From assembly GCA_017475605.1 (NCBI GenBank), contig JAFVFD010000002.1, positions 120,001 to 152,000 of the forward strand: 32,000 nucleotides of DNA. The letters run 5' to 3'. The stretch comes from Alphaproteobacteria bacterium (GTDB lineage: Bacteria; Pseudomonadota; Alphaproteobacteria; Rs-D84). Shown here piece by piece: positions 1-32,000 of this stretch. The position numbers and the translations under genes were made by a program. The notes beneath the pieces were generated by a model. The model was not told where the DNA came from, did no database searches, and worked only from the letters and a program-made list of their open reading frames with translations. Numbering within the stretch: the stretch's first letter is position 1; the number at the start of each line of letters is the position of its first letter.

Positions 1-892
1 TTTGCACCGCACAACCTTTACTTAAAACAACACAATCCGTACCATTTGAATTAGGCGAATACCCATCCAAACACAACAAATGTTCTTTACCAACTTTTTT
101 TAAGTGTGGAGCAGAATTATAATATTTATTACAACACGAACACCCAGTTTCTGTACTTGTATATGCCAACTTTGCCCGAACAACAACAGGAGAAACAAAT
201 GCCCCATGTCCACCAGGAGCCCATTTTGTTACTGCCAAAATCATATCGTATTCTTCTTTGTTTTTTTCTTGGTTCATATGAAACATAGGCAACAAATCTT
301 CTATGTTTTGTGCGGCTTTTGTTACCATTTTAAAACCACTGAATTGATTTTTGTTCATAGTTGTTGTGTTACAACTAGATGCTTGTGTACTATTGCGACA
401 CTCTGTCCCAGAAAAGCCATCACGACACAACCAAAAACACTTTGAACCAGAAGCCGATTCAAAATATTCAGTACGGGCTTTTTCATCAACATCCTTATGA
501 CAATTGAACCAAGCCCAATGTTGTTTATAATCATCATTACTGGCCTCTAGTTGTGTTACGCAGAATTCAGCCCCATTCGCATTCACCTTACGAGCCATTA
601 AAACTAAAATTGCACCTGCATCTGTTTTTGTACCATGCTTTTTTGACAAATCACCAATCTTGTTATTTGTCCATACACCACAATCACTGAAACTGTCCCC
701 TATACAAGCCACATCACTATTAGAATGTTCAATAGCAGTAATAGTATAATTCTTAACACCAAAAAAATCGCGAATTTCTTCACTAATTTGATTATTTGTT
801 ATTGCACCGAAAGCGACATTCAATATGAATGTGTACACAAAGGCGAAAGAAAAGCCGCCCCGTATCAATCGGCTTTTTGATTTAAATAACAT
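1..892 (-). CDS. Secreted cysteine-rich protein with EGF-like half-motifs (5' part only; continues past the left edge)
   Basis: Absent from the ORF track because it has no stop in the window. I checked the minus frame (plus-strand triplets starting at 2,5,8...) codon by codon and it is stop-free from 892 to 2. ATG at 892-890 has GGGAG ~8 nt upstream. N-terminus MLFKSKSRLIRGGFSFAFVYTFILNVAFGA/ITNN is a Sec-type signal peptide. There are 14 Cys in the 297 visible residues, including LCRDGFSGTEC and CLDGYSPNSNGTDC (C-x2-G-[FY]-x4-8-C). The start overlaps the 3' end of the upstream gene by 28 nt. Confidence 0.65.
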   Translation of the reverse strand, partial: MLFKSKSRLIRGGFSFAFVYTFILNVAFGAITNNQISEEIRDFFGVKNYTITAIEHSNSDVACIGDSFSDCGVWTNNKIGDLSKKHGTKTDAGAILVLMARKVNANGAEFCVTQLEASNDDYKQHWAWFNCHKDVDEKARTEYFESASGSKCFWLCRDGFSGTECRNSTQASSCNTTTMNKNQFSGFKMVTKAAQNIEDLLPMFHMNQEKNKEEYDMILAVTKWAPGGHGAFVSPVVVRAKLAYTSTETGCSCCNKYYNSAPHLKKVGKEHLLCLDGYSPNSNGTDCVVLSKGCAVQ

Positions 893-3174
893 GTGCCGTT
901 CTCCCAATATCCACCAATGAAGTTACATCTGTTTTCATACCATTCAGTTGTAAAATTACATTTTTCGGTTTTTTCGTCATATTTGGCATAACCTTTACCA
1001 CCAGTTGCAACATCTTGTGCCTGGCATTGCATTTCAACTGTATTTTGAATACAGATTCCCCAATTTTCGGCTTTGTCTGTGTTGCCACCATATACGTTTC
1101 TATAAAAGCTGGATACATATGGAATATTAGTGCTATGGGTAACATCCTGTGCCATAGTTTTTGCCTCGTCAACTTTTTCCAACCACACCCCATCAAGCAA
1201 CTCACACTGTGTTGCAAGTTTTTGCGCCAAATCGATTTGAATATCATCAACCAATCTGTTTATAACTGTTGTTGTTTCTGCACCGGTCATGGTTGAATTA
1301 CAATATGTTTCGGACATCTTGTTAAGATTTGTTCTAAGTTCTGCTTCACTCATCAAACGGCAATTCCATGGATAGCCAATCGTACCTGATGTTGGTGTAC
1401 ATAATTCCTTGGCATAGTTTTCCATGGCAACTTCGCAACCTTCGTTAATACGAACAGTGTCAACACTGTCCACAAACTTGGTCAACGCGGTTAAACCACA
1501 GGCAGTTGCATTTTGCAATTTTCCATCATTACCAAAGTTACAAGATTCGCCATTCCCATATAACGCGGCGCATGCCGAAACCTTGTCCATGCACATTTGC
1601 TTTGCCGCATAGGCGGAAAGGGCACCGGTCATTTGTGCGGTTGTGGTATCAAAATCTTTCAATGCGGACGATTGTGTGTCATAGCATTCAGCCATGGTGC
1701 TTACGCAACTCATTTTGACTTCTTCTATCTTTTCATCTTGTGCCTGGGCAATTTCAATTAACGCTGTGCGTTTGAATTCTTCCCATACTATTTTTTGTAT
1801 ATCACGACAAGTGTCCAACGCGGTTGTTGCGAACATTTTGCGCGATTCCAAGAATCTGTTGAATTCTGGGTTTACGCCCAAAACATCCATACTGGTGTCG
1901 GAACCCGTATAACCCGGTAATGTAATAATATCTGTTAATTGGAATAAACGTGGCGAATAAATTGGTTCGCCGGTCGACTGATTAACATATGCACCCGTAT
2001 AGTCCAGGCAACGTTTATAGTTTGCCCCACACGCTGTGTCGGCGGTAATTGCCGCACGAACCTTGGATATACATTCATTAACATCGGCACTGTTGTGGGA
2101 ACGATATTCGTCCAAACGTGCCTCGCGTAAATACTTTTCCGCAGTACGAACGGTTTGTTTTACAGCCTCGACCTTTTTATCGATATTCTTTTGATATGCG
2201 TTACAATCTTGTGTAATCAGAATACTGTACGAAGAACGCGCCATGTTCGACACAGCGGCACTTTCGCACGAAGAAGAAACAAGATTCATACACTGTTTAT
2301 TCGCGGCATTATATAAATTAACACCTTCTAATTCCGACAGGTTTTGCCCACCACCATTACCACCAAAGATTGAAGAACCACCGTCGGACCAAATGTCGTC
2401 AATGTCCCCAGAAAAATCAAGCGACAGGACACCCAACGATGTCGAACTGGTGTTCGCGGTATATGTCTTCTTTTTACCGGACAACAAATCACCAATTTCA
2501 TCCAGCATCTTGGCCGCGCCACTGGTATCGTTTTTAATTGCCGCTTCGCCAACTGTGGCGGAATACATGGCGTTAACCTCGGCTGCGGTTTTATCAACCG
2601 CATTTAAATTATTATCTTCGAACCGCATTAATAATGTTTTTGCCTGGTCCAAAGCATCTTCTGTATTGCGGAATTCGGCAAAGCGCGAACTGCAATAGCA
2701 ACGACGATATGTATCGTTTGCGTTTGCACAGAATTGATCCATACATGTCGCATATGCTTCGCGGCAATTGGCATAGCCACCACCAATTTTAGAAATATCG
2801 TTAAATACCGCGGTTGCACGCGCAACAGATGCACGCGACACATTTGGTTTTACCGCGGAACGTGCCGTTGCACCACCGGTTGCACTGCGCGCATTGGTTG
2901 CGCGAACGGTGGTCGCACTGCGCCCAACGGTTGCCGCGCCACGCATAGCATTAGACACAACCGCACCACGCGCCGATGCCCGCGCATCAGCCGCACGCGA
3001 AACCGTACGATTTGTTGTCGCACGCGAAACAGTTGCCGAATCGGTACCACGTGTATTGGTCGCCGTCATTGACGAACCACGTGGGTTGGGGGCCTGGACC
3101 GACATCGCATCAAAGCCCACAAATACGGTCGCAGCCGCAATCAAAGAACGTAAAAGATTTATCCGGTTAAACAT
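865..3174 (-). CDS. Secreted 769-aa cysteine-rich protein with a basic R/A/S/T-rich N-terminal region; no recognisable family
   Basis: Long ORF in the track. Signal peptide MFNRINLLRSLIAAATVFVGFDAMSVQA. Residues ~29-125 are low-complexity with Arg every 5-9 residues (TVSRATTNRTVSRAADARASARG...). The remaining ~640 aa are helix-like and carry 28 Cys by my count, none before residue ~137. Confidence 0.8.
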   Translation of the reverse strand: MFNRINLLRSLIAAATVFVGFDAMSVQAPNPRGSSMTATNTRGTDSATVSRATTNRTVSRAADARASARGAVVSNAMRGAATVGRSATTVRATNARSATGGATARSAVKPNVSRASVARATAVFNDISKIGGGYANCREAYATCMDQFCANANDTYRRCYCSSRFAEFRNTEDALDQAKTLLMRFEDNNLNAVDKTAAEVNAMYSATVGEAAIKNDTSGAAKMLDEIGDLLSGKKKTYTANTSSTSLGVLSLDFSGDIDDIWSDGGSSIFGGNGGGQNLSELEGVNLYNAANKQCMNLVSSSCESAAVSNMARSSYSILITQDCNAYQKNIDKKVEAVKQTVRTAEKYLREARLDEYRSHNSADVNECISKVRAAITADTACGANYKRCLDYTGAYVNQSTGEPIYSPRLFQLTDIITLPGYTGSDTSMDVLGVNPEFNRFLESRKMFATTALDTCRDIQKIVWEEFKRTALIEIAQAQDEKIEEVKMSCVSTMAECYDTQSSALKDFDTTTAQMTGALSAYAAKQMCMDKVSACAALYGNGESCNFGNDGKLQNATACGLTALTKFVDSVDTVRINEGCEVAMENYAKELCTPTSGTIGYPWNCRLMSEAELRTNLNKMSETYCNSTMTGAETTTVINRLVDDIQIDLAQKLATQCELLDGVWLEKVDEAKTMAQDVTHSTNIPYVSSFYRNVYGGNTDKAENWGICIQNTVEMQCQAQDVATGGKGYAKYDEKTEKCNFTTEWYENRCNFIGGYWENGTCYLNQKAD

Positions 3175-3199: not shown

Positions 3200-3229
3200 A
3201 TTTTATCATTTTTGGGGTACCCTTATCAA
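3200..3229 (-). promoter_or_regulatory. Candidate sigma70-type promoter for the 865-3174 gene
   Basis: Minus strand reads TTGATA - 18 nt - TAAAAT, ending ~25 nt upstream of the ATG at 3174. Confidence 0.35.
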
Positions 3230-3231
3230 GC

Positions 3232-3747
3232 CTATTTTATAATGAACCAAAAAATCAGTGTAACAATCAACAATGCGCCCAATGGCCAAACAACCTTTTG
3301 AAATGGGAACCATGCGTGGCCGCCGTTTTTTGCCTTGATATTCTGATACCATTTGCCCGCCAACCAGAAAACGATTGAACCAACAATAACCCCCAGCAAG
3401 AAACTGTCCACGCCCCAAAGTGTTGTTGCGTTGAATCGCAGGGTCGGATTACCCACCGGCAAAACATATATCAGTGCCAGCAGACCATAATAAACAACAT
3501 AGTTCAACAAATATAAAAATCTGTTTTTAATTCCATGTGTCGCCATATAATTCGCCGTCCACGCAGAAAGCGACAACATCAAACCACCGGCCCAAAGCCC
3601 GGTTATAACATCGTCAACCCCCAAAACACGTGCACCTTCTAATCCGGCACCAACCGCAACCGTACACACCGGGCAAAACGCATGCGCCGCGCCAGCCATA
3701 AATACGGCTGACAAAAAACCAAACAAGCAAGACAAACCCTTTTTCAT
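3232..3747 (-). CDS. Polytopic membrane protein with a CPVC (CxxC) motif after the first hydrophobic segment
   Basis: 171-aa ORF with RBS AAAGGAAAGGAA upstream. MKKGLSCLFGFLSAVFMAGAAHA/FCPVCTVAVGAG is followed by about four more hydrophobic helices. No family recognised. Confidence 0.7.
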   Translation of the reverse strand: MKKGLSCLFGFLSAVFMAGAAHAFCPVCTVAVGAGLEGARVLGVDDVITGLWAGGLMLSLSAWTANYMATHGIKNRFLYLLNYVVYYGLLALIYVLPVGNPTLRFNATTLWGVDSFLLGVIVGSIVFWLAGKWYQNIKAKNGGHAWFPFQKVVWPLGALLIVTLIFWFIIK

Positions 3748-3799: not shown

Positions 3800-4645
3800 T
3801 CAATATGATTTTACGACACCGCGCATATGCGCACTGCGCGCACGTGGATTCGTATTCAATTCCGTCTCGGTTGGTGTTTGCGCCCGTATTAATTCAAATG
3901 GGGCGGGGCGGATTGCCGGCAAACGCGCATCGCCCGGTGCGGTTGTCCATGCCCGAAAAGTGTTTTTTACAATTCTGTCCTCGATTGAATGAAATGTTAC
4001 ACAGATACATTTTCCACCAATATTTAATCGTGCCGGCACGCCCGCCAATGCGCGTTCCAGTTCGCCCATTTCGTCATTAACCGCGATGCGTAATGCCTGA
4101 AATACCGGCGCGATATCATTTGGGTTAAATATCAAATCGCGTAATTCAAATGTGGTTTTTGGGGTGGCATCCTTGAACGCACGCGCCAAAACATTTGCCT
4201 TTTTAACATCGCCATAGTCGCGCAATATTCGTGCCAATTCATCGGGCGACTTTGTTTCAATCAATTCGGCGGCGGTCATACCAGTTTCCGACATGCGCAT
4301 ATCCAATGGCGCATCAAAGCGAAATGAAAACCCACGCGATGCAACATCAATCTGCATTGACGAAATCCCCAGGTCAAACACAATCGCATCAAATGTTTCA
4401 TCTAAATCAATTAAATGCGAAAATGTTTCAGATATAAACCGGAACATATTGCCGTATTCTTTTTTTATGCTTTCGGCATCGGCGGCAACATTAGGGTCGC
4501 GATCAAACGCAACGACATGCGCCCCCGCATCCAAAAAAGCCCGCGTATATCCACCTGCGCCAAATGTGCAATCAACGATGCGCTTTCCACGAATATCGCC
4601 CAGGGCATTTATAACCGCATCTAATAATACAGGTATATGTTTCAT
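3800..4645 (-). CDS. rsmH: 16S rRNA (cytosine1402-N4)-methyltransferase RsmH (MraW)
   Basis: HIPVLL...DCTFGAGGYTR (SAM-binding site), FDLGISSMQID, RGFSFRFDAPLDMRM, FQALRIAVNDE and TFHSIEDRIVK match the RsmH family signature blocks. Confidence 0.9.
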   Translation of the reverse strand: MKHIPVLLDAVINALGDIRGKRIVDCTFGAGGYTRAFLDAGAHVVAFDRDPNVAADAESIKKEYGNMFRFISETFSHLIDLDETFDAIVFDLGISSMQIDVASRGFSFRFDAPLDMRMSETGMTAAELIETKSPDELARILRDYGDVKKANVLARAFKDATPKTTFELRDLIFNPNDIAPVFQALRIAVNDEMGELERALAGVPARLNIGGKCICVTFHSIEDRIVKNTFRAWTTAPGDARLPAIRPAPFELIRAQTPTETELNTNPRARSAHMRGVVKSY

Positions 4646-12015: not shown

Positions 12016-12345
12016 ATCAGATGCACAGGACATAGCCGTCGGGATCCCCGGCGGAGGAAAGTCCGGACTGCGTGGGACAGCATACAGGCTAACGGCCTGG
12101 CGGGGCGACCCGACGATTAGAGGAACAGTAACGTATGCGGTTTTTAACCGTTTGAAACGGCCAATCTCTATGCGCAGCAACTTCAAATAGGCCACCCATT
12201 GACCGGTCCCTGTCAGGTGGCGGGTAGAGGGCTTGATGCCCAGTGGTAACATTGGGTACAGATTGATTATGTCCGCTACCCCGTTGTTGTTGGAAACGAC
12301 TGCGGCGGGGCATGTACAGAATCCGGCTTATCGTGTATCTGATAA
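12016..12345 (+). ncRNA. rnpB: RNase P RNA (bacterial type A)
   Basis: Universally conserved P4 strands GGAGGAAAGTCCGGAC (12052-12067) and ACAGAATCCGGCTTATCG (12316-12333). The terminal P1 helix pairs ATCAGATGCAC (12016-12026) with GTGTATCTGAT (12333-12343), including one G-U pair. The overlapping track ORFs are spurious. Confidence 0.9.
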
Positions 12346-12373
12346 TAAAAATCGCGCCATCGGCGCGTTTTTA
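12346..12373. terminator. Bidirectional rho-independent terminator (rnpB on +, tolA on -)
   Basis: An A-run, the stem CGCGCC/GGCGCG with a 3-nt loop, then TTTTT. It lies between two convergent transcription units. Confidence 0.6.
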
Positions 12374-12375
12374 TT

Positions 12376-13137
12376 TTACATAACTTTACCACTGGTGGGG
12401 TAAAATGTTAATTGTATTTTTTCCCACTTGGAAAACTCATTTTCAGGCAACATTTTCAACGGTTGACAGGTATTTATTGCCGCACGTATTGTATCCAAAA
12501 CATAAGCAAATGCCGCATCAGTTTCCGCGCGCGCCGCCGATTCAAACCACACATCGCGCACCGTTCCATTTTTACGCATAGTAAGGTGTGCCACCGCACG
12601 AATATCCGAAATATCATTTCTGTTTTTATCAATTACCCAACAACGCGTCATCGCCACACGCAACGCATCAACCACCGACACATTAAGTGTGCGATTCAAT
12701 GAAACACTTTCGCGGTTAACACGAATTACCATTTTCTTCTTTGGTGCGGCTGGGACCGGATCAACCTTGATTTCTTCGGGTGTGGGTTCCGGCTTTGCAT
12801 CCGGTTTGGTTTCCGGTTCGGGTTCGGCCAGCGATGGCGATTCTATATTTTTATCGGGCGCATCGGGGGCGGGGGCAGGTTCCGGCGATTCCGTCTTTTC
12901 TGGTTTTACATCCGGTTTTGTATCTTCGATTGGGTTTGTATTATAAAGTTTTGTTTCTTCGCCCGATATCGTAACAGAATCTAAATCAATTTCTGTAATT
13001 TCAATTCTGTCCGGCGCAATTAACAACGCACGATTAACCAACACCGCAAATGACGTTACCATAACAGATATAACAATCAGATGTCCAATCAAAGACATCA
13101 GTATATTTTCCAACGAAAATTGTTTATCTGGGTTCAT
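12376..13137 (-). CDS. tolA: TolA-like cell-envelope integrity protein
   Basis: N-terminal TM anchor, a Pro/Glu/Lys-rich linker (PEPAPAPDAP...EPEPETKPDAKPEPTPEE) and a C-terminal TolA/TonB-like globular domain. Follows tolQ-tolR with a 4-nt ATGA overlap. Confidence 0.75.
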   Translation of the reverse strand: MNPDKQFSLENILMSLIGHLIVISVMVTSFAVLVNRALLIAPDRIEITEIDLDSVTISGEETKLYNTNPIEDTKPDVKPEKTESPEPAPAPDAPDKNIESPSLAEPEPETKPDAKPEPTPEEIKVDPVPAAPKKKMVIRVNRESVSLNRTLNVSVVDALRVAMTRCWVIDKNRNDISDIRAVAHLTMRKNGTVRDVWFESAARAETDAAFAYVLDTIRAAINTCQPLKMLPENEFSKWEKIQLTFYPTSGKVM

Positions 13138-13538
13138 TTTTCTGCTTTTGTGCGCAGGCCAACGCGCTGAAATCCGGAATCTTTCAATTTACCCATAACG
13201 GACATAACCGCACCATAATCGGCATGCCGGTCGCCATTTATAACTATTGATAACTGGGGGTTTTCACCACGCATCGCAATCGCGCGCTTAACAACATCAT
13301 CAACCGCCAATTCCGTCTCGTTCAAATAATAGCGACCATTGGAATCAACGCTTATTTGAATAGCATGATCGTTCCCATTTAATGCGGAATGCCCCGTATT
13401 TGGCAAATCTAAATCGATACCATTTGTCATCATTGGTGTTGTTACCATAAACACCGCCAGCAACACCGTCATAACATCAATCATAGGTGTTAATTGAATA
13501 AGTGCATCGGCATTTTGTCTGCGTCTTAATCTGGACAT
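13134..13538 (-). CDS. tolR: TolR/ExbD-family biopolymer transport protein
   Basis: 134 aa with LTPMIDVMTVLLAVFMV (TM segment with the conserved Asp) and an ExbD-type periplasmic domain. Lies between tolQ and tolA. Confidence 0.88.
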   Translation of the reverse strand: MSRLRRRQNADALIQLTPMIDVMTVLLAVFMVTTPMMTNGIDLDLPNTGHSALNGNDHAIQISVDSNGRYYLNETELAVDDVVKRAIAMRGENPQLSIVINGDRHADYGAVMSVMGKLKDSGFQRVGLRTKAEK

Positions 13539-13540
13539 GA

Positions 13541-13981
13541 TTATTTTCCACCCAATTTTTCGTATAAATCATCTGATTTTTTGGTAAACACTTGATACGC
13601 AATCGCGGCAGGTATTGCGGCAATAAGTCCCAGTGCAGTCGTCCCCAGTGCGGTTGCCAACCCCGGTGCAATAACACCAATACTGACCGATTGATTAAGC
13701 CCGATTGATGCGAAAGAATCCATAACACCCCATACGGTTCCGAACAACCCAATAAATGGCGACACACCCGCAACCATCGCCAAAAACCACAGGTTTTTAT
13801 CAAACGGTGCAATTGCATCGTCCGGTTTACCAGCCGGCTTGTTACGGCGTGCACCGCGGAAAAGACGAATTTTTTCAACAATAACCGCCCACGATAAAAT
13901 ACTGAAAATTACCAATACTATTGACGCAATTGCCGTTACAAAATCACTGGTAAACAATGTCCATAATGAAAAACTGTTCAT
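13541..13981 (-). CDS. tolQ: TolQ/ExbB-family proton-channel protein (compact, 146 aa)
   Basis: MotA/TolQ/ExbB motifs SPFIGLFGTVWGVMDSF and ALGTTALGLIAAIPAAIAYQVF. Start set at ATG 13981 (RBS GGAAGGA, 1 nt after the ybgC stop) rather than the track's 14005. Confidence 0.85.
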   Translation of the reverse strand: MNSFSLWTLFTSDFVTAIASIVLVIFSILSWAVIVEKIRLFRGARRNKPAGKPDDAIAPFDKNLWFLAMVAGVSPFIGLFGTVWGVMDSFASIGLNQSVSIGVIAPGLATALGTTALGLIAAIPAAIAYQVFTKKSDDLYEKLGGK

Positions 13982-13982
13982 T

Positions 13983-14372
13983 TTATCCTTCCTTTGCTGA
14001 ATCAAGGTGTTCTGTTATAGTTGCCGGAATGCGTTTTGCCCGCATATCCGCACCAATATAGACCACTGTAATATTCATTATAGCACAAATTGTGCCATCA
14101 TGCACGAACTTTTGTTGTAAATCCATAGATGCACCGCCTATATTGATAATTTCTGTTTCAACAACTATATCGTCGGCCAAGCGCAACGGGTGCATATATT
14201 TTATTGATATTTCGCGCACGACAAAACCATTGTCATCCGCCGGCAATTCAATTCCGCGCATCATTTCCATGCGGGCACGTTCCGCAATTTCAATATAACG
14301 ACCATGATAAACAATGCCGCCCGCATCCGTATCGGAATACGCGATTGAAAAATTGTATTTATATGTTTTCAT
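13983..14372 (-). CDS. ybgC: Tol-Pal-associated acyl-CoA thioesterase (4HBT/YbgC family)
   Basis: YSDTDAGGIVYHGRYIEIAERARMEMMR is the hot-dog-fold YbgC signature. The gene sits directly upstream of tolQ. Confidence 0.85.
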   Translation of the reverse strand: MKTYKYNFSIAYSDTDAGGIVYHGRYIEIAERARMEMMRGIELPADDNGFVVREISIKYMHPLRLADDIVVETEIINIGGASMDLQQKFVHDGTICAIMNITVVYIGADMRAKRIPATITEHLDSAKEG

Positions 14373-16736: not shown

Positions 16737-16766
16737 TTGACATGAATACCCCATTTGTTTTAAGAT
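16737..16766 (+). promoter_or_regulatory. Candidate promoter of the 16793 secreted-protein gene
   Basis: TTGACA - 18 nt - TAAGAT, lying back-to-back with the divergent minus-strand promoter. Its position favours the ATG at 16793 over the track start at 16742. Confidence 0.35.
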
Positions 16767-16792
16767 TTATTCGAGAGATAAAAGGTTTTGCT

Positions 16793-17713
16793 ATGTCTAA
16801 ACTAGGATTTTTGGCTGTTTTCGCGGTTTTTAGCGCATTTAATGCGTTTGCAGAAGACTTCGTTGAATACGAAAACTTTCAGACTATTTACACCGAAACA
16901 CCGGTACAATCATATTACGCGTACCCAGATGATCCGAATTTCATTCCGGAAACTGAATTTATGCAACGCGCAGACAGTTTGGACTATGACCAAAACATTA
17001 TAAATGCGCGCGAAGCGGAATCTGCGGCACACCCGGGGGTTATGTTTGCCGACCGCCCAATGATAATTTGTCGTAATTTTGGTTGTACAAAGTTAAACGA
17101 CCGTATCACGCGTACATTTTTATTTAACAGTTTGGCAAATATGTTCATGATGAACAGCCATTCCCGCGTATATATTTGTGAAGCGGACCCGTTTTCACGC
17201 GACTGCCTGCAATCTGGCATTTCATTCCCTGTGCGCAGCGGTGTTGCCAATGCCCTGGTCAAGATTCCCAAGGCCACCATATCCCAGGTTACTCTTTCCA
17301 CCGGTCTTTCCAAGGCAACCGTTGGTATGACCTATGAATTGTTGGTTAACGGTGTTTCCCGCGTGTGCGAACCAACCGTTATGGACATTGTTATTCCTGT
17401 TAATTCCCAGGCAACATTATCAAACCGCGAATTTACATGTAACATGACCAGCGACGGTTTAAGCAATGTGTCCTTGTTGGTTAATATTGATTATATCGAT
17501 TTAGACTATGGCATTTTGGGTGGTTATTATTCACTTGGGATGCAGGGTCCAACCACCGGTGGTGGCACAGGATACGCGTTATTCAAAACAGAATTCACGA
17601 CACGTGGTTTACAATTCCGCGCGGCCACTGATGACGATATGATGGGCGCAAATGGCGGTAATATGTTGACTATCCAACCGGGTGAATATGCCGTTGGGCC
17701 GTTGGCAAAATAA
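16793..17713 (+). CDS. Secreted hypothetical protein (306 aa, 6 Cys)
   Basis: From ATG 16793 the protein begins MSKLGFLAVFAVFSAFNAFA/EDF, a canonical Sec signal peptide. An AAAAGG RBS lies upstream. No family recognised. Confidence 0.7.
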   Translation: MSKLGFLAVFAVFSAFNAFAEDFVEYENFQTIYTETPVQSYYAYPDDPNFIPETEFMQRADSLDYDQNIINAREAESAAHPGVMFADRPMIICRNFGCTKLNDRITRTFLFNSLANMFMMNSHSRVYICEADPFSRDCLQSGISFPVRSGVANALVKIPKATISQVTLSTGLSKATVGMTYELLVNGVSRVCEPTVMDIVIPVNSQATLSNREFTCNMTSDGLSNVSLLVNIDYIDLDYGILGGYYSLGMQGPTTGGGTGYALFKTEFTTRGLQFRAATDDDMMGANGGNMLTIQPGEYAVGPLAK

Positions 17714-25160: not shown

Positions 25161-25191
25161 TTGACAAATATATTATTTTGTGTTATATAAT
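25161..25191 (+). promoter_or_regulatory. Candidate promoter of the 25213 orphan gene
   Basis: Consensus TTGACA - 17 nt - TATATA (or 19 nt - TATAAT). Confidence 0.4.
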
Positions 25192-25212
25192 AATGGAACA
25201 AAAGGTAAAATA

Positions 25213-25704
25213 ATGAAAAAACAAATAAAAGATATGACCAAGGCCGAAAAATTATCACGCATTGAACGTTTGTCTTTAAAATTTCATGATATTGAAACGA
25301 TACCGTCCGTATTGTTATCGGACGAGGCCAAACGCACACAGTCAGATAAAACAATAATTGACGCGATTAACAAATTGGAAACACTGGAAATTCAAAGCCA
25401 CCAACTAGAACAAGCCCATTCGGATGTCATGGCGCGTGATTTACGCCCATTAAAGCGTATTTATGATTACGAAACCGAAAAACTGGCCAAGAAACAAGAA
25501 TCTGAAAACCAAACATATCTTTCGCGCAGAATACCTGTTCCACAACACATTCAACAAAAACACATTAGCGAAAAGAAAGAATTGGAAACCAAACACGCAA
25601 ATCGCAAAAAAGCAGCATTGGCCCCAACAGAAACTAAACTTGCGGAATGTAAACAAAAAATATATTCGGTATTTATGGACGCAGTCCGATATCTGTACAG
25701 GTAA
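25213..25704 (+). CDS. Hypothetical charged, probably coiled-coil protein (163 aa)
   Basis: ORF from ATG 25213 (MKKQIKDMTKAEK). Rich in K/E/Q with heptad-like stretches and no signal peptide. It has its own promoter and terminator. Confidence 0.55.
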   Translation: MKKQIKDMTKAEKLSRIERLSLKFHDIETIPSVLLSDEAKRTQSDKTIIDAINKLETLEIQSHQLEQAHSDVMARDLRPLKRIYDYETEKLAKKQESENQTYLSRRIPVPQHIQQKHISEKKELETKHANRKKAALAPTETKLAECKQKIYSVFMDAVRYLYR

Positions 25705-27689: not shown

Positions 27690-30600
27690 ATGTTTGTGGC
27701 GACTTTGTTTGTCGTGGGGGTCTTTATTTGCCCGAATACTCCGGTGTCTGCGATTCAGCGCAATGTTCCGCAACCAACAAATACGCGTACGGTTGTTAAC
27801 AGAACATCCCCTAAAACAGTACCGGCGCGCACAACGGTATCCAGGGCTACAATAAACCAATCAACCTCATCACAGACACCTGTGAAACGCGCTGCGATAT
27901 CAACCAGCCAAAAAGCATCCCGAAATCCGATAAACGCAACAAAAACACAAAAACCAGCTGTCGAATCTGCAACACAAACTCGTACGATTGTACAAAAATC
28001 TTCTAGAAGCACGACCCGCCGTTATCAAGCAAACACTCAATCACGCACACAATCGCGCACAGCCACAATACAAAACAGAACCACACCTCCAACTAATGAC
28101 TCTACGTTGGTAAAAATGCACATTCCTGCCGATTTACGTTCAAGCCCAAACATTCAAGCATATATAACTATGTCGGGTGGGGATGATTATATTGTATTTA
28201 AATTATTCAAAAACAAATTACCCAATTTATCGACACTGTTCCAAAATCTGGGCGGAAACATGGGGGTCTTTGCCGAAAACAATACCACCAGCACCCAGAT
28301 TGTGGCAACAAACGGGACCCCGACAACGACTTCTGATCGCGAAGTTTATTTACTGAAACAACAAACAGGTGGCGGTGGTGGCGCATGTGCAAGTAATTCC
28401 GATTGTGGCGACGGAACATGTAATGCCAGTGGTATCTGCCAGTGCTTTGATAACGCATCCAAGGGGGCCAATGGCAAATGCACATGTAATTCAGGATATT
28501 ACCAGTCTGGTGGCGCATGCGTTGCGGACACATCGGGCACTGATACGAATAATTTAACATTTACAACATGCAACACCAATTCGGAATGTGCCAGTGGCCA
28601 ATGTAATTACGGCGTGTGTGTTAAGGATGACCCCAGCAGCTTTAAGTGTAACGAAGAAACAATCCAACCCGTATTCGCCATCACTGTAAAAGGAACATCG
28701 GTTTTTAATGTAAATATTCGCGCCGCAGGAACATTCTTTCTTTTTGCTCCGCACGGTGGGGTTATATCTAGTAATGGTACTACGACTTGTACGTCTAATA
28801 TTATAAAATTAGAACGCCCAACAACGGCTGGCACAGGAACGTTATCCGCCACCATTACTGATTCAGACGAATACACAACGCTGTATTTTGGTGGCATGGC
28901 GACCGAATATCCGAATAACGATACCCCAGTGATTGAATTTCAAAATACCACAGGGACATATATTGATTACAGACCATATATCTATGAAGTGTCCGGCTCG
29001 ATTGGTGCGATATTCCCCACAATTGGCGATGCGACCAGTGTCGATTACACAAAACAACCACGTTTCAAGGGGTTGTTTTCTAACGCGGTTAATCTGCGTT
29101 CTATACCGTCTGGGTTATTTGACGGCATCCATGGCCAACCGGTTGCGGATATGTTTTCTGGTGTGTTTTCTGGCTGCACCGGTTTAACCGGTTCAATTCC
29201 GGACAGATTATTTGCCGGCCTGACCGGAACGGCAGATAGCTTATTCGCGTCGACATTTTATAATTGCTCTGGGCTAACAGGTTTAATTCCCGCAAACCTG
29301 TTTGACGGTCTGACCGGCCCATACAAGCAACGTATGTTCATTAACACATTTGCTTATTGCAGTGGCCTTACTGGCAATATTCCAGATGGTTTGTTTGGTA
29401 ATTTGACTATCAATGATCCACTCGCCTATACAGCACAAACATTTAGCATGACATTTGACCGCTGCAGCGGCTTAACCGGCTATGTTCCATCCAGCATGTA
29501 TAAAGGGTTGGACGGGAAATCGGTCAATAGCACTTTTGGTACAAATGGCGATACATTTTATGGTTGCACAGGAATGGCAACATCTTGCGAAAATGGTTAT
29601 ATAAAAGATCCCGCCGCCGCAAACTATGAGCAATATTGGAGCAATCATGTCGCCTGTATCCCAGATGGCAGCAGCAGTCCCACACCGCCGGCCGCGCAAC
29701 AAACCATGACAATACCATTTTCAACGGCCGATTATGAACTGGGCAATGACACCACCGCAGATGAAGTATTTACCACAAGTTCACGCACAATTAACTTGGC
29801 ATCCGTACTAAACAATGCAACTGGTACGGTTACTGTTGACTGGGGCGACGGCACCAGTGTTGCTACAATCACCGCAGGTGATGCACTGCCATCACATACG
29901 TATACCGGCAACAGTGTATATAACATCACATTAACGGGCGACATTCCCGAAATGAAATCGACCAGCGACAATGTTGTGGCAACATGTACCGGTAATGCCG
30001 ATGAAATTCGTATCAACGAAACCCAATGCGCACGAACCAAGTTCAGAATTAACACAACGTCTGATGCCGACGAGTTTTTAATCTATATCGGTGCCGCGGG
30101 AACATTCTATATCGATTGGGATGATGGTTCCGCACCAAGTGTAATTACACATGCGACACCAATTGCGGTACCGTATTCCCATAAATATACAACGGTGCAA
30201 TCGCGAACGATTCGCATTGGCGGTTTGGCAACGGAATACCCACCATTGAATATCAACCCCGCCATATCATTTTTCTATAACAACATTTCACACCCCAATT
30301 ACATACACAGTGTTTCCGGTTCGTTGGGCGAATTGTTCCCCAGTTATGGCACTGCCGTTGGGCAAACACCACGATTTCGCAACACATTTCTGTATGCGAC
30401 TAATATGTACACAATTCCGAACACTTTATTCAGCGGGATAAGCAACGGTTCGGGAACCGTTGCGCCGATATCAAGTATGTTCGAAGGAACGTTTAAACAC
30501 TCCGGTCTGACCGAAATACCGACGGGTCTGTTTGCCGAAATTGGGGGCGCACCGGCCAACAGTATGTTTGAAGAAACGTTTTATATGGCGGAAAATCTGG

Positions 30601-32000
30601 CTGGCGAGATTCCATCGGATTTATTCGCCGGCATTCGCGGCGCACCGGCGGAACAAATGTACGAACGCACATTTGGTAGCACAAAATTAAGTGGCGAATT
30701 GCCTGATTATCTGTTTGGCAATTTGAATGGTGCGCCACAATATGCGATGTTCATGCAAACATTTGTCAACGACACGGGGCTAACGGGACAAATTCCGGAT
30801 CATTTGTTTGGCGATTTGACTGGTTCAATTGATGTTCGCTGGGCGTTTTATGAAACATTCAAGGGGTGTTCTAAACTAACCGGATATATACCATCAACAT
30901 TATTTGGCACCGTCACGGGCAATGCCGGCGATGGAACATTTAGCGACACATTCACTGGAACTGGCTTGTTGGAAAATATATGCCCCAGTAATTTTCATCC
31001 ATATCCCACCTATAACAACCGATTTGCAACATATTGGGATGGCCATATTGCATGCGAAGCCGATGATGCGATTCCTGCTGACCCGGCGCTGGGCACGTGC
31101 ACCGACGCAGAAAATGAAATTGTCGTTGGCGATGGCAAATGTGTTACATCAAAATTCATTGTCGAAACAAAATCTGTAAGTAAAGTGGTATTTTCAATCA
31201 GTGCCGCCGGTATATTCTATTACGATTGTGGCGATGGCAAAGGGGGGCATGTAATCAACCGTACCGATGACACAACACCGCGTACATATTATTGCAACTA
31301 TGACACCACCGGCAAATACACTGTCCGATTTGCCGGCACTGCAACTGGTTATTCAACCGACGAACAGACCGCCGCAATAAGCTTCAATTATAACGAATCA
31401 GATTCGTCAAAGTGCGACATCACATCAATCACAGGCTCGTTGGGTTCCGTATTTCCAAGCATTGATTCCACTGGCACTAATGGCAAGACTCCGCGTTTCA
31501 CTAACACATTCAAGTATTGTGGGCTTGACTCCATTCCCGAAAACCTGTTCAGTGGCGTAAATGGACAACCAGTATCATATATGTTCATGGGAACATTTAG
31601 CGGCGCAAAGGCAACGTCTATTCCAGCCGGATTATTCAGTGGTATAAACGGCACGCCCACACCCCACCTGTTTGAAGGCACATTCAGTGGCATGACACTG
31701 TTAAGTGGCACCATAAGCTCTGATTTATTCGCGGGAATCCGTGGCGAACCAGCACCGTATATGTTCAAATCCACGTTCCAAAATTGTTATGATAATTTTT
31801 ATAAACGGTCTTTTTCAATTGATGACGATTTATTCAGCGGAATATCTGGCGCACCCGCGACAAGCATGTTTGAAAGCACATTTGAACACACAACATTGAA
31901 CAAATTACCACCGCGCTTGTTCCGCCGTATATCCGGCGCACCGGCGACAAAAATGTTCGCACATACGTTTGATGGAACATCGCCATATGAGGGTGGTACA
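27690..32000 (+). CDS. Giant secreted modular repeat protein (at least 1,437 aa; 3' end beyond the window): signal peptide, basic leader, EGF-like Cys knots, and at least 3 super-modules of PKD-like domain + ~30-aa repeat array + Cys cap
   Basis: Absent from the ORF track because there is no stop in the window. The frame of ATG 27690 is open to 32000 (4,311 nt = 1,437 codons); I translated it fully and checked coordinates at several landmarks. MFVATLFVVGVFICPNTPVSA is a signal peptide. The true start may be non-canonical at 27663 (see findings). Confidence 0.85.
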   Translation, partial: MFVATLFVVGVFICPNTPVSAIQRNVPQPTNTRTVVNRTSPKTVPARTTVSRATINQSTSSQTPVKRAAISTSQKASRNPINATKTQKPAVESATQTRTIVQKSSRSTTRRYQANTQSRTQSRTATIQNRTTPPTNDSTLVKMHIPADLRSSPNIQAYITMSGGDDYIVFKLFKNKLPNLSTLFQNLGGNMGVFAENNTTSTQIVATNGTPTTTSDREVYLLKQQTGGGGGACASNSDCGDGTCNASGICQCFDNASKGANGKCTCNSGYYQSGGACVADTSGTDTNNLTFTTCNTNSECASGQCNYGVCVKDDPSSFKCNEETIQPVFAITVKGTSVFNVNIRAAGTFFLFAPHGGVISSNGTTTCTSNIIKLERPTTAGTGTLSATITDSDEYTTLYFGGMATEYPNNDTPVIEFQNTTGTYIDYRPYIYEVSGSIGAIFPTIGDATSVDYTKQPRFKGLFSNAVNLRSIPSGLFDGIHGQPVADMFSGVFSGCTGLTGSIPDRLFAGLTGTADSLFASTFYNCSGLTGLIPANLFDGLTGPYKQRMFINTFAYCSGLTGNIPDGLFGNLTINDPLAYTAQTFSMTFDRCSGLTGYVPSSMYKGLDGKSVNSTFGTNGDTFYGCTGMATSCENGYIKDPAAANYEQYWSNHVACIPDGSSSPTPPAAQQTMTIPFSTADYELGNDTTADEVFTTSSRTINLASVLNNATGTVTVDWGDGTSVATITAGDALPSHTYTGNSVYNITLTGDIPEMKSTSDNVVATCTGNADEIRINETQCARTKFRINTTSDADEFLIYIGAAGTFYIDWDDGSAPSVITHATPIAVPYSHKYTTVQSRTIRIGGLATEYPPLNINPAISFFYNNISHPNYIHSVSGSLGELFPSYGTAVGQTPRFRNTFLYATNMYTIPNTLFSGISNGSGTVAPISSMFEGTFKHSGLTEIPTGLFAEIGGAPANSMFEETFYMAENLAGEIPSDLFAGIRGAPAEQMYERTFGSTKLSGELPDYLFGNLNGAPQYAMFMQTFVNDTGLTGQIPDHLFGDLTGSIDVRWAFYETFKGCSKLTGYIPSTLFGTVTGNAGDGTFSDTFTGTGLLENICPSNFHPYPTYNNRFATYWDGHIACEADDAIPADPALGTCTDAENEIVVGDGKCVTSKFIVETKSVSKVVFSISAAGIFYYDCGDGKGGHVINRTDDTTPRTYYCNYDTTGKYTVRFAGTATGYSTDEQTAAISFNYNESDSSKCDITSITGSLGSVFPSIDSTGTNGKTPRFTNTFKYCGLDSIPENLFSGVNGQPVSYMFMGTFSGAKATSIPAGLFSGINGTPTPHLFEGTFSGMTLLSGTISSDLFAGIRGEPAPYMFKSTFQNCYDNFYKRSFSIDDDLFSGISGAPATSMFESTFEHTTLNKLPPRLFRRISGAPATKMFAHTFDGTSPYEGGT
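29055..29534 (+). repeat. Array 1 of ~30-aa coding repeats (5 units) inside the giant gene
   Basis: QPRFKGLFSNAVNLRSIPSGLFDGIHGQPVAD / MFSGVFSGCTGLTGSIPDRLFAGLTGTADS / LFASTFYNCSGLTGLIPANLFDGLTGPYKQR / MFINTFAYCSGLTGNIPDGLFGNL... / FSMTFDRCSGLTGYVPSSMYKGLDG... Confidence 0.8.
30366..30938 (+). repeat. Array 2 of ~30-aa coding repeats (6 units)
   Basis: TPRFRNTFLYATNMYTIPNTLFSGISNG... / MFEGTFKHSGLTEIPTGLFAEIGGAPANS / MFEETFYMAENLAGEIPSDLFAGIRGAPAEQ / MYERTFGSTKLSGELPDYLFGNLNGAPQYA / MFMQTFVNDTGLTGQIPDHLFGDLTG... / FYETFKGCSKLTGYIPSTLFGTVTG... Confidence 0.8.
31488..32000 (+). repeat. Array 3 of ~30-aa coding repeats (at least 6 units, truncated by the window edge)
   Basis: TPRFTNTFKYCGLDSIPENLFSGVNGQPVSY / MFMGTFSGAKATSIPAGLFSGINGTPTPH / LFEGTFSGMTLLSGTISSDLFAGIRGEPAPY / MFKSTFQNC...DDDLFSGISGAPATS / MFESTFEHTTLNKLPPRLFRRISGAPATK / MFAHTFDG... 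Confidence 0.8.

What the first reader, a model, noticed from the sequence alone, without database searches (positions are those of the whole stretch)
1..3174. Two overlapping genes for secreted cysteine-rich orphans; the second is invisible in the ORF track
The 769-aa gene ends at 865. A second minus-strand ORF starts at ATG 892 (SD GGGAG), 28 nt inside it, and runs off the left edge. It begins with a good signal peptide and has 14 Cys in 297 visible residues. The 28-nt overlap implies co-transcription and possibly translational coupling. The pair has its own candidate promoter (3200-3229). The 769-aa protein has 28 Cys, enough for 14 disulfides if all are paired, in an otherwise alpha-helical-looking, Asn/Thr/Ala-rich sequence with no motif I recognise. 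Together with the giant protein and the 16793 gene, four of the 26 proteins in this window are Sec-dependent Cys-containing orphans.
Basis: partly seen in the sequence, partly recalled or inferred. Interest (0 to 1): 0.65.

Follow-up and report, generated by a model that had tools for sequence, protein, structure and literature searches.

The report
Conserved cysteine-rich exported protein pair
Two adjacent genes for exported, cysteine-rich proteins are real and are not orphans: they are conserved across an uncultured order of tiny-genome gut bacteria, match no known family or fold, behave as a conserved scaffold plus a swappable partner, and sit beside a membrane protein that looks like a disulfide-bond enzyme.

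Summary
Gene A (865-3174, minus strand, 769 aa, 28 Cys) is overlapped by 28 nt by gene B. B starts at ATG 892, has an SD GGGAG, and has 14 Cys in its 297 visible codons. The source contig completes B at 432 aa and 24 Cys, followed by a terminator.

"Orphans" is wrong.
- A has more than 1000 homologues and occurs in 241 GTDB species genomes of the reduced-genome gut Alphaproteobacteria ("Ca. Enterousia", order Rs-D84).
- A B relative lies directly downstream of A in 67 of 80 loci.
- Neither protein matches Pfam, NCBIfam, PDB sequences or PDB folds.

New findings:
- A's core (residues 116-600) is as conserved as RsmH. Its last ~70 residues and B evolve fast and together (Mantel r 0.59-0.73, plus a clear mosaic example). 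This points to an A-tail/B cassette and a physical A-B contact.
- The upstream 171-aa membrane protein carries an invariant, outward-facing CPxC motif. In other bacteria this domain is fused to exported glutaredoxin-like domains, so it is a candidate disulfide oxidoreductase.
- The proposed promoter is invariant in six relatives.

The function is inferred: a disulfide-stabilised envelope complex. I rate this moderately interesting, as new families of a broadly known kind.

The parts
865..3174 (-). Gene A: a 769-aa exported protein with 28 Cys. Layout: signal peptide (residues 1-28), basic disordered tail (29-115), conserved helical core (116-600), variable region (601-700) and cassette tail (701-769).
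   Evidence: ORF. 28 Cys. At least 1089 homologues, 53-75% identical over the full length. 27 of 28 Cys invariant in 35 sequences. Mostly helical model, pLDDT 59.9. No Pfam, NCBIfam, PDB or Foldseek match.
2830..3090 (-). A residues 29-115: a low-complexity A/T/R/S-rich basic tail just after the signal peptide, beginning with the near-invariant motif QAPNPR. It has 14 R+K against 2 D+E; the rest of A has 62 R+K against 88 D+E.
   Evidence: Composition. Variable in length and sequence, but Arg-rich in all homologues. pLDDT below 50. The giant protein at 27690 onward has a similar basic T/S/R-rich N-terminal stretch that includes 'TTVSRAT'.
1375..2829 (-). A residues 116-600: the conserved helical, Cys-containing core.
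   Evidence: Median 69.6% identity to 79 species loci, the same as RsmH at 70.1%. It holds most of the invariant columns.
868..1074 (-). A residues 701-769: the fast-evolving C-terminal tail, which travels with the downstream partner gene as a cassette.
   Evidence: Mosaic: the tail is 78% identical to P0024 (core 73%) but only 35% to P0001 (core 88%). P0024's genome carries a B-type partner, while P0001's carries a different 274-aa partner. The Mantel test used A residues after 600: A C-terminus against B gives r=0.59, and against B's C-terminal module r=0.73, p=0.001.
1..892 (-). Gene B: the first 297 of 432 codons. An exported protein with 24 Cys in total (14 in the window), beta-rich, with EGF/TNFR-like Cys spacing motifs.
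   Evidence: Open frame. Full gene at L001 12283-13581. Family of 66 members aligned, with about 17 conserved Cys. Model of homologue P0121: pLDDT 71.9, mostly strands. No Pfam, PDB or Foldseek match.
865..892 (-). The 28-nt A/B overlap. B's ATG (892-890) lies inside the Thr-Cys codons of A's conserved C-terminal motif GYWENGTCY. The SD GGGAG (905-901) lies in A's Trp-Glu codons.
   Evidence: Sequence. The same overlap is present in L086. The junction DNA is nearly identical there across the SD and ATG.
3200..3229 (-). Candidate sigma-70 promoter for A-B in the M-A intergenic spacer: -35 TTGATA at 3229-3224 and extended -10 TGaTAAAAT at 3208-3200. The RBS AGAGAGA is at 3190-3184.
   Evidence: Pattern scores 10 of 12. 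TTGAT and TG.TAAAAT are invariant in 6 of 6 relatives while the neighbouring bases diverge.
3232..3747 (-). Gene M: a 171-aa multi-pass membrane protein with an invariant CPVC motif (residues 25-28, nt 3675-3664) just after the first hydrophobic segment. It is a candidate membrane thiol-disulfide oxidoreductase.
   Evidence: ORF. Found between rsmH and A in 49 of 80 loci, with an invariant CPVCT.A.GA motif. The family has 418 clusters, and only C25, P26, C28 and G123 are invariant. There are 320-370-aa fusions to exported CxxC glutaredoxin-like domains.
3800..4645 (-). rsmH (16S rRNA m4C methyltransferase). It is the conserved upstream neighbour and serves as the synteny anchor.
   Evidence: Pfam Methyltransf_5 on the source contig. 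Present upstream of A in 78 of 80 loci.

Best explanation
A and B are the two subunits of a disulfide-stabilised complex that is exported by Sec into the cell envelope. The complex is specific to the reduced-genome gut Alphaproteobacteria of order Rs-D84 ('Ca. Enterousia' and relatives).

A is the conserved scaffold. It has a basic, disordered N-terminal tail that probably holds it to an anionic envelope layer, and an all-helical core braced by about 14 disulfides.

A's last ~70 residues form a docking surface for the C-terminal Cys-rich module of B. B's N-terminal, beta-rich part is the variable working end. It is exchanged between lineages together with A's tail, as a cassette. That is what one expects of a part exposed to partners, hosts, phages or immunity.

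The two genes are transcribed together from a promoter just upstream of A and end at a terminator after B. In this lineage B's start codon and SD are embedded in A's last codons.

The neighbouring membrane protein M presents a CPxC motif on the outer face of the inner membrane and most likely makes or shuffles the disulfides of such exported proteins.

Shown: the genes, their conservation, synteny, Cys invariance, mosaic inheritance and co-variation, and the M fusions.

Inferred: export, disulfides, the A-B contact, surface exposure, and M acting on A and B.
For: Genes and completion of B.

Distribution and synteny:
- A has at least 1089 homologues and occurs in 241 GTDB species genomes. All named ones are Enterousia or uncultured Alphaproteobacteria.
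- Rs-D84 genomes are under 1 Mb and host-dependent (PMC12306168).
- The synteny rsmH-M-(N)-A-B holds across 80 loci.

Cysteines: 27 of 28 Cys in A are invariant. About 17 Cys are conserved in B despite roughly 35% identity. There is no CxxCH in either protein and no CxxC in A. B has EGF-like spacings such as C.WLC..G[YF].G..C.

Rates of change: A core 69.6% median identity against RsmH 70.1%. A residues 601-769 are at 37.6% and B at 35.0%.

Co-variation: A C-terminus against B gives r=0.59. Against B's C-terminal module it gives r=0.73, but only 0.37 against B's N-terminal part, which is the part adjacent on the DNA. RsmH against B gives r=0.00.

Mosaic: the window's A tail is 78% identical to P0024 and 35% to P0001, while the cores are 73% and 88%. 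The partner gene type follows the tail.

Modularity: the 274-281-aa partners keep only B's C-terminal module.

Transcription unit: conserved promoter, conserved overlap, terminator.

M: invariant CPxC. Fusions to signal-peptide-led CxxC glutaredoxin-like domains score Pfam Glutaredoxin E=1.4e-4, GRX_euk E=4e-8 and GlrX_YruB E=4.5e-5.

Genomic setting: core housekeeping DNA that includes ybgC-tolQ-tolR, so this is a diderm and not a mobile island.
Against: - No experiment or homology ties A or B to any function. Neither model matches a known fold, and A's model is poor (pLDDT 59.9, pTM 0.33).
- Ten loci with enough flanking sequence have A but no partner gene downstream, so B is not obligatory.
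- M is missing from the locus in about 30 of 80 species. A has its own conserved promoter. The M-A link therefore rests only on neighbourhood.
- M has one Cys pair, whereas DsbB and VKOR have two.
- These organisms are strict fermenters without respiratory chains, so the electron sink for disulfide formation is unknown.
- The glutaredoxin-like hits fall below Pfam and NCBIfam cut-offs.
- The Mantel correlations could partly reflect shared recombination tracts or rate heterogeneity. A star comparison against the window alone shows no tail-B correlation at this divergence.
- In a diderm, Sec export alone gives a periplasmic location. Surface exposure is unproven.
Confidence: 0.45

Rival explanations
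1. A is a strictly periplasmic housekeeping scaffold of this order, for example part of envelope or division architecture. B is a dispensable periplasmic accessory. The variability of A's tail and of B reflects relaxed constraint and local recombination, not exposure to the outside or a specific interaction.
For: A's core is as conserved as RsmH and sits among core genes just after rsmH. There is no secretion-system signal beyond Sec, and no barrel or autotransporter domain. B is absent in ten loci. B has lower GC, 36.5% against about 44%.
Against: About 17 Cys and the C-terminal module of B stay conserved despite roughly 35% identity, so B is under selection. A's tail correlates better with B's distal module (r=0.73) than with the DNA-adjacent part (r=0.37). 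This is hard to explain by recombination tracts alone. The mosaic cassette pattern resembles diversifying exchange.
Confidence: 0.25
2. M is merely a neighbour. It is a general or unrelated CPxC membrane protein (metal handling or reductant transfer), and A and B are oxidised by other means or spontaneously.
For: M is absent from the locus in about 30 of 80 species. A has its own conserved promoter. The M family is widespread (418 clusters), far beyond A's range. One fusion is to a Nitro_FeMo-Co domain rather than to a thioredoxin fold. M has a single Cys pair only.
Against: M is syntenic with A in 49 of 80 species. There are repeated independent fusions to exported CxxC glutaredoxin-like domains, with a topology that puts both CxxC motifs outside. 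The two adjacent genes encode 52 Cys between them.
Confidence: 0.3
3. The cysteines bind metals or clusters (Zn, Fe-S) or carry out redox chemistry themselves. On this view A and B are extracytoplasmic redox or metal-storage proteins rather than disulfide-braced structural proteins.
For: Cys content is very high and the habitat is anaerobic, with no respiratory chain to drive DsbB-type oxidation. B has three CxxC-type motifs.
Against: A has no CxxC or CxxCH motif, and its Cys are spread over about 630 residues, often as C-x6-8-C on predicted helices. B's motifs match disulfide-type EGF/TNFR-like spacing. No metal-binding family is hit.
Confidence: 0.08
4. A-B is a polymorphic toxin or effector locus. 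A delivers a variable toxic partner, or B is a secreted effector against host or competitor cells.
For: Cassette-like exchange of a C-terminal tail plus the downstream gene. Rapid evolution of B. A partner-dependent lifestyle has been proposed for the order.
Against: No toxin, peptidase, nuclease or immunity domain was found. There is no small immunity-like gene after B: the next gene is a convergent HTH_3 regulator, then gpmI. No dedicated secretion genes are in the locus. Both proteins have ordinary Sec signals.
Confidence: 0.07

Closest known systems
Dedicated oxidoreductase-plus-client operons: DsbL/DsbI with AssT in uropathogenic E. coli, and MauD/MauE with the disulfide-rich small subunit of methylamine dehydrogenase (from my own knowledge, not tested here)
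   Same: A membrane redox component is encoded next to exported, Cys-rich client proteins. The logic is 'a specialised oxidative-folding helper beside its substrate'.
   Different: M has no detectable similarity to DsbB, DsbI, VKOR or MauE and has only one invariant Cys pair. No soluble thioredoxin-fold partner is encoded in this locus. The clients are new families. M is absent from the locus in about 30 of 80 species.
VKOR-thioredoxin/DsbA fusion proteins (for example Synechococcus and Clostridium sp.; PMC12453122)
   Same: In other bacteria the M domain is fused to an exported CxxC thioredoxin-fold domain, with both CxxC motifs predicted on the outer face. This is the same Rosetta-stone architecture that links VKOR to its DsbA-like partner.
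   Different: There is no sequence relation to VKOR. The domain order is reversed (Trx-like domain at the N-terminus, then an extra TM, then M). There is no loop Cys pair, and no evidence of quinone use. The hosts lack respiratory chains.
Helicobacter cysteine-rich proteins (Hcp, Sel1-like repeat proteins with one disulfide per helix pair) (from my own knowledge)
   Same: Exported, all-alpha proteins in which closely spaced Cys pairs brace helices. A has repeated C-x6-8-C pairs, at residues 137/144, 295/303, 382/389, 490/497, 528/535 and 708/717.
   Different: There is no Sel1 or TPR Pfam hit at E up to 1, no 36-residue periodicity, no Foldseek match, and A is far larger.
EGF-like and TNF-receptor-type cysteine-rich modules
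   Same: B has repeated spacings of the form C-x2-4-C-x2-G-[FY]-x4-8-C and CxxC...GxCxxC. The only faintly suggestive fold matches are TNFR-like: DR5 at E=1.6, CD40 at E=2.0, and a poxvirus TNFR-like protein at E=0.014.
   Different: No Pfam EGF, TNFR or furin-like hit even at E=10. All fold matches are non-significant. The N-terminal and middle beta-rich domains have no counterpart.
Variable cassette loci in which a conserved protein's C-terminal end is exchanged together with the downstream gene (for example CdiA-CT/CdiI) (from my own knowledge)
   Same: A's last ~70 residues and the downstream gene are inherited together and are incongruent with the rest of A.
   Different: The downstream gene is a large exported Cys-rich protein, not a small cytoplasmic immunity protein. 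There are no toxin domains and no CDI, T5SS or T6SS context.

Membership tests
DsbB (PF02600) / VKOR (PF07884) membrane disulfide oxidoreductases (for M) | Sequence match to the family model | tested here: not met
   Pfam and NCBIfam scans of M at E up to 1 gave only DUF7299 at E=0.35. A profile of 38 M-family members against PDB sequences gave no DsbB or VKOR hit at E up to 10.
DsbB (PF02600) / VKOR (PF07884) membrane disulfide oxidoreductases (for M) | An extracytoplasmic CxxC next to a transmembrane helix | tested here: met
   CPxC is invariant across 38 diverse members and all 50 Rs-D84 copies, directly after the first hydrophobic segment. The outward orientation is inferred from the fusion topology: signal peptide, Grx-like domain, TM, Lys-rich loop, TM, CPxC.
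DsbB (PF02600) / VKOR (PF07884) membrane disulfide oxidoreductases (for M) | A second, shuttle Cys pair in an extracytoplasmic loop | tested here: not met
   Only C25 and C28 are invariant. No other conserved Cys exists in the family.
DsbB (PF02600) / VKOR (PF07884) membrane disulfide oxidoreductases (for M) | Quinone-dependent reoxidation | not testable with these tools
   This needs biochemistry. The literature reports that Rs-D84 lacks respiratory chains (PMC12306168).
Thioredoxin/glutaredoxin fold (N-terminal domain of the fused M homologues) | Family model match and a CxxC active site | tested here: inconclusive
   CxxC is present in all six fusions read. Hits are consistent but below the cut-offs: Pfam Glutaredoxin at 22.4 bits against a cut-off of 22.9, plus Glrx-like and Thioredoxin_2; GRX_euk at E=4e-8 and GlrX_YruB at E=4.5e-5.
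EGF-like / TNFR / furin-like Cys-rich repeats (for B) | Family model match | tested here: not met
   No Pfam family at E up to 10 for B, and none at E up to 0.1 for three homologues. There is a pattern resemblance only.
EGF-like / TNFR / furin-like Cys-rich repeats (for B) | Fold match to solved or predicted structures | tested here: not met
   Foldseek of the P0121 model (pLDDT 71.9) gave no hit with E up to 0.001 in PDB or BFVD. TNFR-like hits were at E=0.014-2 with probability at most 0.14.
Sel1-like repeat / Helicobacter cysteine-rich proteins (for A) | Sel1/TPR repeat model match | tested here: not met
   No Pfam family at E up to 1. No PDB sequence or profile hit. No Foldseek hit with E below 1.
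Polymorphic toxin / immunity cassette | A toxin domain at the variable C-terminus and a small cognate immunity gene downstream | tested here: not met
   No toxin domains. The downstream gene is a 274-460-aa exported Cys-rich protein, followed by a convergent HTH_3 gene.
   A has at least 1089 relatives and 241 GTDB genomes. B has a family member downstream of A in 67 of 80 loci.

The most novel reading that the evidence does not exclude
The locus reveals two linked novelties.

(1) M may found a new class of membrane thiol-disulfide oxidoreductase. It would be defined by a single outward-facing CPxC motif, be fused in other phyla to exported glutaredoxin-like domains, and drive oxidative folding in strict fermenters that lack quinones and respiratory chains.

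(2) A-B may be the order-defining surface attachment organelle of Rs-D84. A would be a conserved disulfide-braced stalk. Its tail and the B adaptor would be swapped as matched cassettes to change partner or host specificity.
Probability: 0.2. Interest if true: 0.8.

Novelty: new variant of a known kind. Interest (0 to 1): 0.55.

Why it matters
Rs-D84 / "Ca. Enterousia" are widespread gut bacteria of humans and livestock. They have never been cultured, their genomes are under 1 Mb, and they are thought to depend on a partner cell (PMC12306168). How they contact other cells is unknown.

Gene A is as conserved as a ribosome-modifying enzyme, is restricted to this order, and is paired with a fast-swapping partner. 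That makes it a concrete candidate for the contact machinery, and also a lineage marker.

Separately, the CPxC membrane family offers a testable answer to an open question: how anaerobes without quinones or DsbB/VKOR form disulfides in exported proteins. It has 418 clusters at 50% identity, has no Pfam model, and shows Rosetta-stone fusions to exported glutaredoxin-like domains.

Tried and rejected
Searches that found nothing:
- Pfam and NCBIfam gave no hits for A, B, M, N, the B homologues, the giant protein or the gene at 16742.
- PDB sequence searches with the single sequence and with profiles A1, A2 and A4 found nothing. There were only chance-level hits to MORC2 and cytochrome oxidase subunit 2.
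- Foldseek of the A model against PDB, and of the B-homologue model against PDB and BFVD, gave nothing with E up to 0.001.

Ideas tested and dropped:
- A and B are not paralogues: hhalign probability 1.7%.
- A and B have no paralogues among the other window ORFs.
- The cytochrome c idea fails: no CxxCH motif.
- A mobile-element or phage origin fails: the neighbours are secA, dnaE, rsmH, tolQR, ruvB, argS, rplM/rpsI, tig, thyA and rpsA.
- A dcw-cluster role was prompted by rsmH. Here rsmH follows dnaE and no fts or mur genes are nearby, so the idea has no support.

Technical dead ends:
- The profile search for more B homologues in the 5.8-billion-protein set returned only 8 proteins because of the candidate cap.
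B was therefore modelled through its homologue P0121 with only 9 sequences.
- A star comparison of A-tail identity against B identity, both relative to the window, showed no correlation (-0.25) because all GTDB representatives are too diverged from the window.
- Gene N of the relatives was sought in the window and in L001 and was not found.
- The literature searches turned up no description of these families.

Full report
**1. The observation**

The minus strand carries a 769-aa ORF at 865..3174 with 28 Cys. A second minus-strand frame starts at ATG 892-890. It is preceded by GGGAG at 905-901 and stays open for 297 codons to the window edge. It contains 14 Cys. A's stop is at 867-865, so the two genes overlap by 28 nt. 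The ORF lister omits the second gene because it runs off the window.

An exact-sequence look-up of the 769-aa protein found the source contig, a 217-kb metagenome scaffold held as L001. It completes the second gene at 432 aa and 24 Cys. A GC-rich hairpin with a T-run follows the stop, and the next gene is convergent. Below, the 769-aa gene is A, the 432-aa gene is B, and the 171-aa membrane protein gene upstream (3232..3747) is M.

**2. Not orphans, but no known family**

A has at least 1089 relatives at E up to 1e-3. The top 120 are full length and 53-75% identical. Every named one is a hypothetical protein of an uncultured Alphaproteobacterium.

A pattern scan of one genome per GTDB species found A in 241 genomes. 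The 80 best are 'Candidatus Enterousia' or unnamed gut and rumen Alphaproteobacteria MAGs. This is order Rs-D84. Its members have genomes under 1 Mb, no respiration, incomplete glycolysis and a presumed partner-dependent lifestyle (PMC12306168).

B gave only 6-8 hits in the word-indexed search. In the fetched loci, however, a B relative lies immediately downstream of A in 67 of 80 species. It is 380-550 aa long with 18-27 Cys.

Neither protein matches anything known:
- No Pfam or NCBIfam hit.
- No PDB hit with single sequences or profiles.
- The two are not related to each other (hhalign probability 1.7%).
- The AlphaFold model of A is almost all helix but weak (pLDDT 59.9, pTM 0.33). It has no Foldseek match with E below 1.
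- The model of B's homologue P0121 is better (pLDDT 71.9, pTM 0.54) and mostly beta. It has no significant match in PDB or BFVD. Only faint TNF-receptor-like hits appear.

**3. Anatomy of A**

After a signal-peptide-like N-terminus (..SVQA|PNPR) comes a disordered A/T/R/S-rich stretch, residues 29-115. It has 14 basic residues and 2 acidic ones. The rest of the protein has 62 basic and 88 acidic residues. This stretch varies in length and sequence but always starts near QAPNPR and stays Arg-rich.

Residues 116-600 are highly conserved. 27 of the 28 Cys are invariant in 35 sequences. Many Cys occur as C-x6-8-C pairs on predicted helices. A has no CxxC or CxxCH motif, which argues for disulfides rather than haem or typical metal sites.

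Median identity to the window protein over about 79 species is 69.6% for the core, the same as RsmH at 70.1%. It is only 41.8% for residues 1-115 and 37.6% for residues 601-769.

**4. Anatomy of B**

Sixty-six family members can be aligned. About 17 Cys columns are conserved despite a median identity of about 35%.

Recurrent motifs have EGF-like or TNFR-like spacing but fail the family models:
- C.WLC..G[YF].G..C
- LLC..GY.PN...TDC
- C..C....G.C..C..G..F
- QCWT...EY..CV

B is modular. In the closest GTDB relative (L004) and in the closest metagenomic relative (L084), the gene after A is a different 274-281-aa protein with 20-21 Cys. It keeps only B's C-terminal module (hmm positions 310-397, E=1e-8). 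In ten loci with enough flank there is no partner gene at all.

**5. A's tail and B form a cassette**

Over 64 species, pairwise distances were compared.

| Comparison | r | p |
|---|---|---|
| A residues after 600 vs B | 0.59 | 0.001 (Mantel) |
| Same, partial, controlling for RsmH and the A core | 0.54 | not computed |
| A residues after 600 vs B's C-terminal module | 0.73 | 0.001 |
| A residues after 600 vs B's N-terminal part (adjacent on the DNA) | 0.37 | 0.001 |
| RsmH vs B | 0.00 | 0.5 |

A concrete mosaic example supports this.

| Relative | A core identity | A tail (701-769) identity | Downstream gene |
|---|---|---|---|
| P0001 | 88% | 35% | type-2 partner, 274 aa |
| P0024 | 73% | 78% | B-type partner P0121, 47% identical to B |

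The P0024 genome has the same 28-nt overlap. The junction DNA there is nearly identical across the SD and ATG.

So A's last ~70 residues and the partner gene are inherited together and are incongruent with the rest of A. The stronger correlation with the distal module than with the adjacent one favours a protein-protein fit over a mere recombination tract.

One caveat applies. Comparing every species only to the window shows no such correlation, because all are too diverged from it.

**6. Transcription**

By pattern count alone it is unremarkable (12 sites found against 11.3 expected). But the -35 TTGAT and TG.TAAAAT are invariant in six related M-A spacers whose flanks diverge, as is the AGAGAGAT ribosome-binding region.

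Together with the tight A-B spacing and the terminator after B, this makes an A-B bicistron the likely unit. The overlap itself is lineage-specific: gaps range from -149 to +107 nt, though my longest-ORF starts bias these toward overlap. In this lineage B's SD and ATG are written inside A's conserved C-terminal motif GYWENGTCY.

**7. The neighbour M**

M lies between rsmH and A in 49 of 80 species. It carries an invariant CPVCT.A.GA motif straight after its first hydrophobic segment.

An exhaustive search found 418 clusters at 50% identity with E up to 1e-3. Across 38 diverse members, only C25, P26, C28 and G123 are invariant. The family has no Pfam or NCBIfam model and no PDB relative.

About a dozen of the top 150 hits are 320-370-aa fusions. 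Their layout is signal peptide, a roughly 100-aa CxxC domain, a TM, a Lys-rich loop, and then the M domain. The added domain hits glutaredoxin and thioredoxin models repeatedly, just under the cut-offs:
- Pfam Glutaredoxin at 22.4 bits against a cut-off of 22.9
- GRX_euk at E=4e-8
- GlrX_YruB at E=4.5e-5

This topology puts both CxxC motifs outside the membrane, the same logic as VKOR-DsbA fusions (PMC12453122). I therefore read M as a candidate membrane thiol-disulfide oxidoreductase.

Its link to A and B is by neighbourhood only:
- M is missing from the locus in about 30 of 80 species.
- A has its own promoter.
- One fusion is to a Nitro_FeMo-Co domain.
- M has only one conserved Cys pair, unlike DsbB or VKOR.

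**8. Context**

The window is core chromosome: secA, an APH-like kinase, dnaE, rsmH, RNase P RNA, ybgC-tolQ-tolR, ruvB, a two-component system, argS, rplM-rpsI, tig, thyA and rpsA. The Tol genes imply a diderm envelope, so Sec export alone places A and B in the periplasm unless another route exists.

A giant protein of more than 1436 aa starts near 27690. It has a comparable basic T/S/R-rich stretch after its signal peptide, including 'TTVSRAT' against A's 'TVSRATTNRTVSRAA'. This hints at a shared N-terminal anchoring or sorting module.

Many relatives carry an extra cytoplasmic-looking gene N between M and A. It is about 200 aa, or about 126 aa in the shorter form found in loci that lack M, and has the motif KKVNPLDLSSDQDL. 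It is absent here.

**9. Interpretation**

The best-supported reading is as follows. A and B are subunits of a disulfide-braced, exported envelope complex specific to Rs-D84. A is a conserved scaffold with a basic tether. B is a variable partner that docks through its C-terminal module on A's tail, and the tail plus partner are exchanged as a cassette. M is probably a disulfide-forming or disulfide-shuffling helper.

- Shown: the genes, their conservation, Cys invariance, synteny, the mosaic and co-variation, the promoter footprint, and the M fusions.
- Inferred: export, disulfides, the A-B contact, surface exposure, and M acting on A and B.

The rivals cannot be excluded. They are a purely periplasmic housekeeping scaffold, M as an unrelated neighbour, metal binding, and a toxin cassette. 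Each is weighed in its own entry of this report.

**10. Novelty and score**

A, B and M are undescribed families. There is no model, no solved or predicted fold match, and no paper found that describes them. The kind of thing, Cys-rich exported proteins beside a putative oxidoreductase, has precedents such as DsbL/DsbI-AssT and MauD/MauE (from my own knowledge). I therefore rate it a new variant of a known kind.

Interest is 0.55. The gene pair alone is an uncharacterised lineage-specific envelope locus. What makes it worth following up is the matched-cassette behaviour and the CPxC family as a possible answer to disulfide formation in quinone-less anaerobes.

Noticed in passing
window 3232-3747 (-), and proteins P0129-P0278: The 171-aa membrane protein belongs to a widespread family with no Pfam or NCBIfam model (418 clusters at 50% identity). 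Its only invariant residues are CPxC plus one Gly. About a dozen members are fused to exported CxxC glutaredoxin-like domains, and one (P0253) is fused to a Nitro_FeMo-Co domain.
   Followed up: partly
window 27690-32000 (+), runs off the right edge: A giant exported protein of more than 1436 aa with 34 Cys. After its signal peptide it has a basic T/S/R/Q-rich low-complexity stretch resembling A's N-terminal tail ('TTVSRAT'). This is followed by repeated F.GC.GLTG.IP..LF.G leucine-rich-like units. Its only Pfam hit is a weak PKD match (E=0.01).
   Followed up: partly
L008 5303-5920 and the equivalent position in about 42 of 80 loci; a shorter 120-156-aa form in 22 loci that lack M (e.g. L042 3301-3681): An extra conserved gene N lies between M (or rsmH) and A in most relatives. 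It has no signal peptide, the motif KKVNPLDLSSDQDLSIALMNL, and in the long form 4 Cys and a C-terminal NCCIE. It has no Pfam hit and is absent from this window and from L001.
   Followed up: partly
window 12017-12346 (+): Bacterial RNase P RNA class A (195 bits, E=5e-62). It lies in the gap between secA and the tol genes.
   Followed up: no
window 12376-14372 (-): A ybgC-like thioesterase, tolQ and tolR, followed by a 253-aa ORF with no Pfam hit in the position where tolA would be expected. This implies a diderm envelope with a Tol system in this reduced genome.
   Followed up: no
window 16742-17713 (+) and 25180-25704 (+): Two more ORFs without any Pfam family. The other is a 174-aa ORF.
   Followed up: no
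L017 (CAZJGX010000017.1) and L070 (OZ246409.1): Two public assemblies that carry the full rsmH-M-N-A-B locus are labelled 'uncultured Muribaculaceae bacterium'. One is a closed 716-kb chromosome.
   Followed up: no
window 1-3000: There is a GC gradient along the operon: 48.4% at 2001-3000 (A's 5' half), 42.0% at 1001-2000, and 36.5% at 1-1000 (A's tail plus B). The rest of the window is at about 38-48%. The fast-evolving cassette is the most AT-rich part.
   Followed up: no
L073 10003-10374 (-) and L068 9798-10136 (-): Short A-like (123 aa, E=3e-16) and B-like (112 aa, E=3.5e-28 to the family profile) ORFs lie on the opposite strand about 1.5 kb downstream of the main pair in two species. They may be remnants of, or spare, cassette fragments.
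   Followed up: no
L001 13674-14087 (-), just beyond the window's left edge: A convergent 137-aa HTH_3 (XRE-type) regulator gene follows B here, and also in L084 and L086. Whether it regulates the A-B pair is unknown.
   Followed up: no
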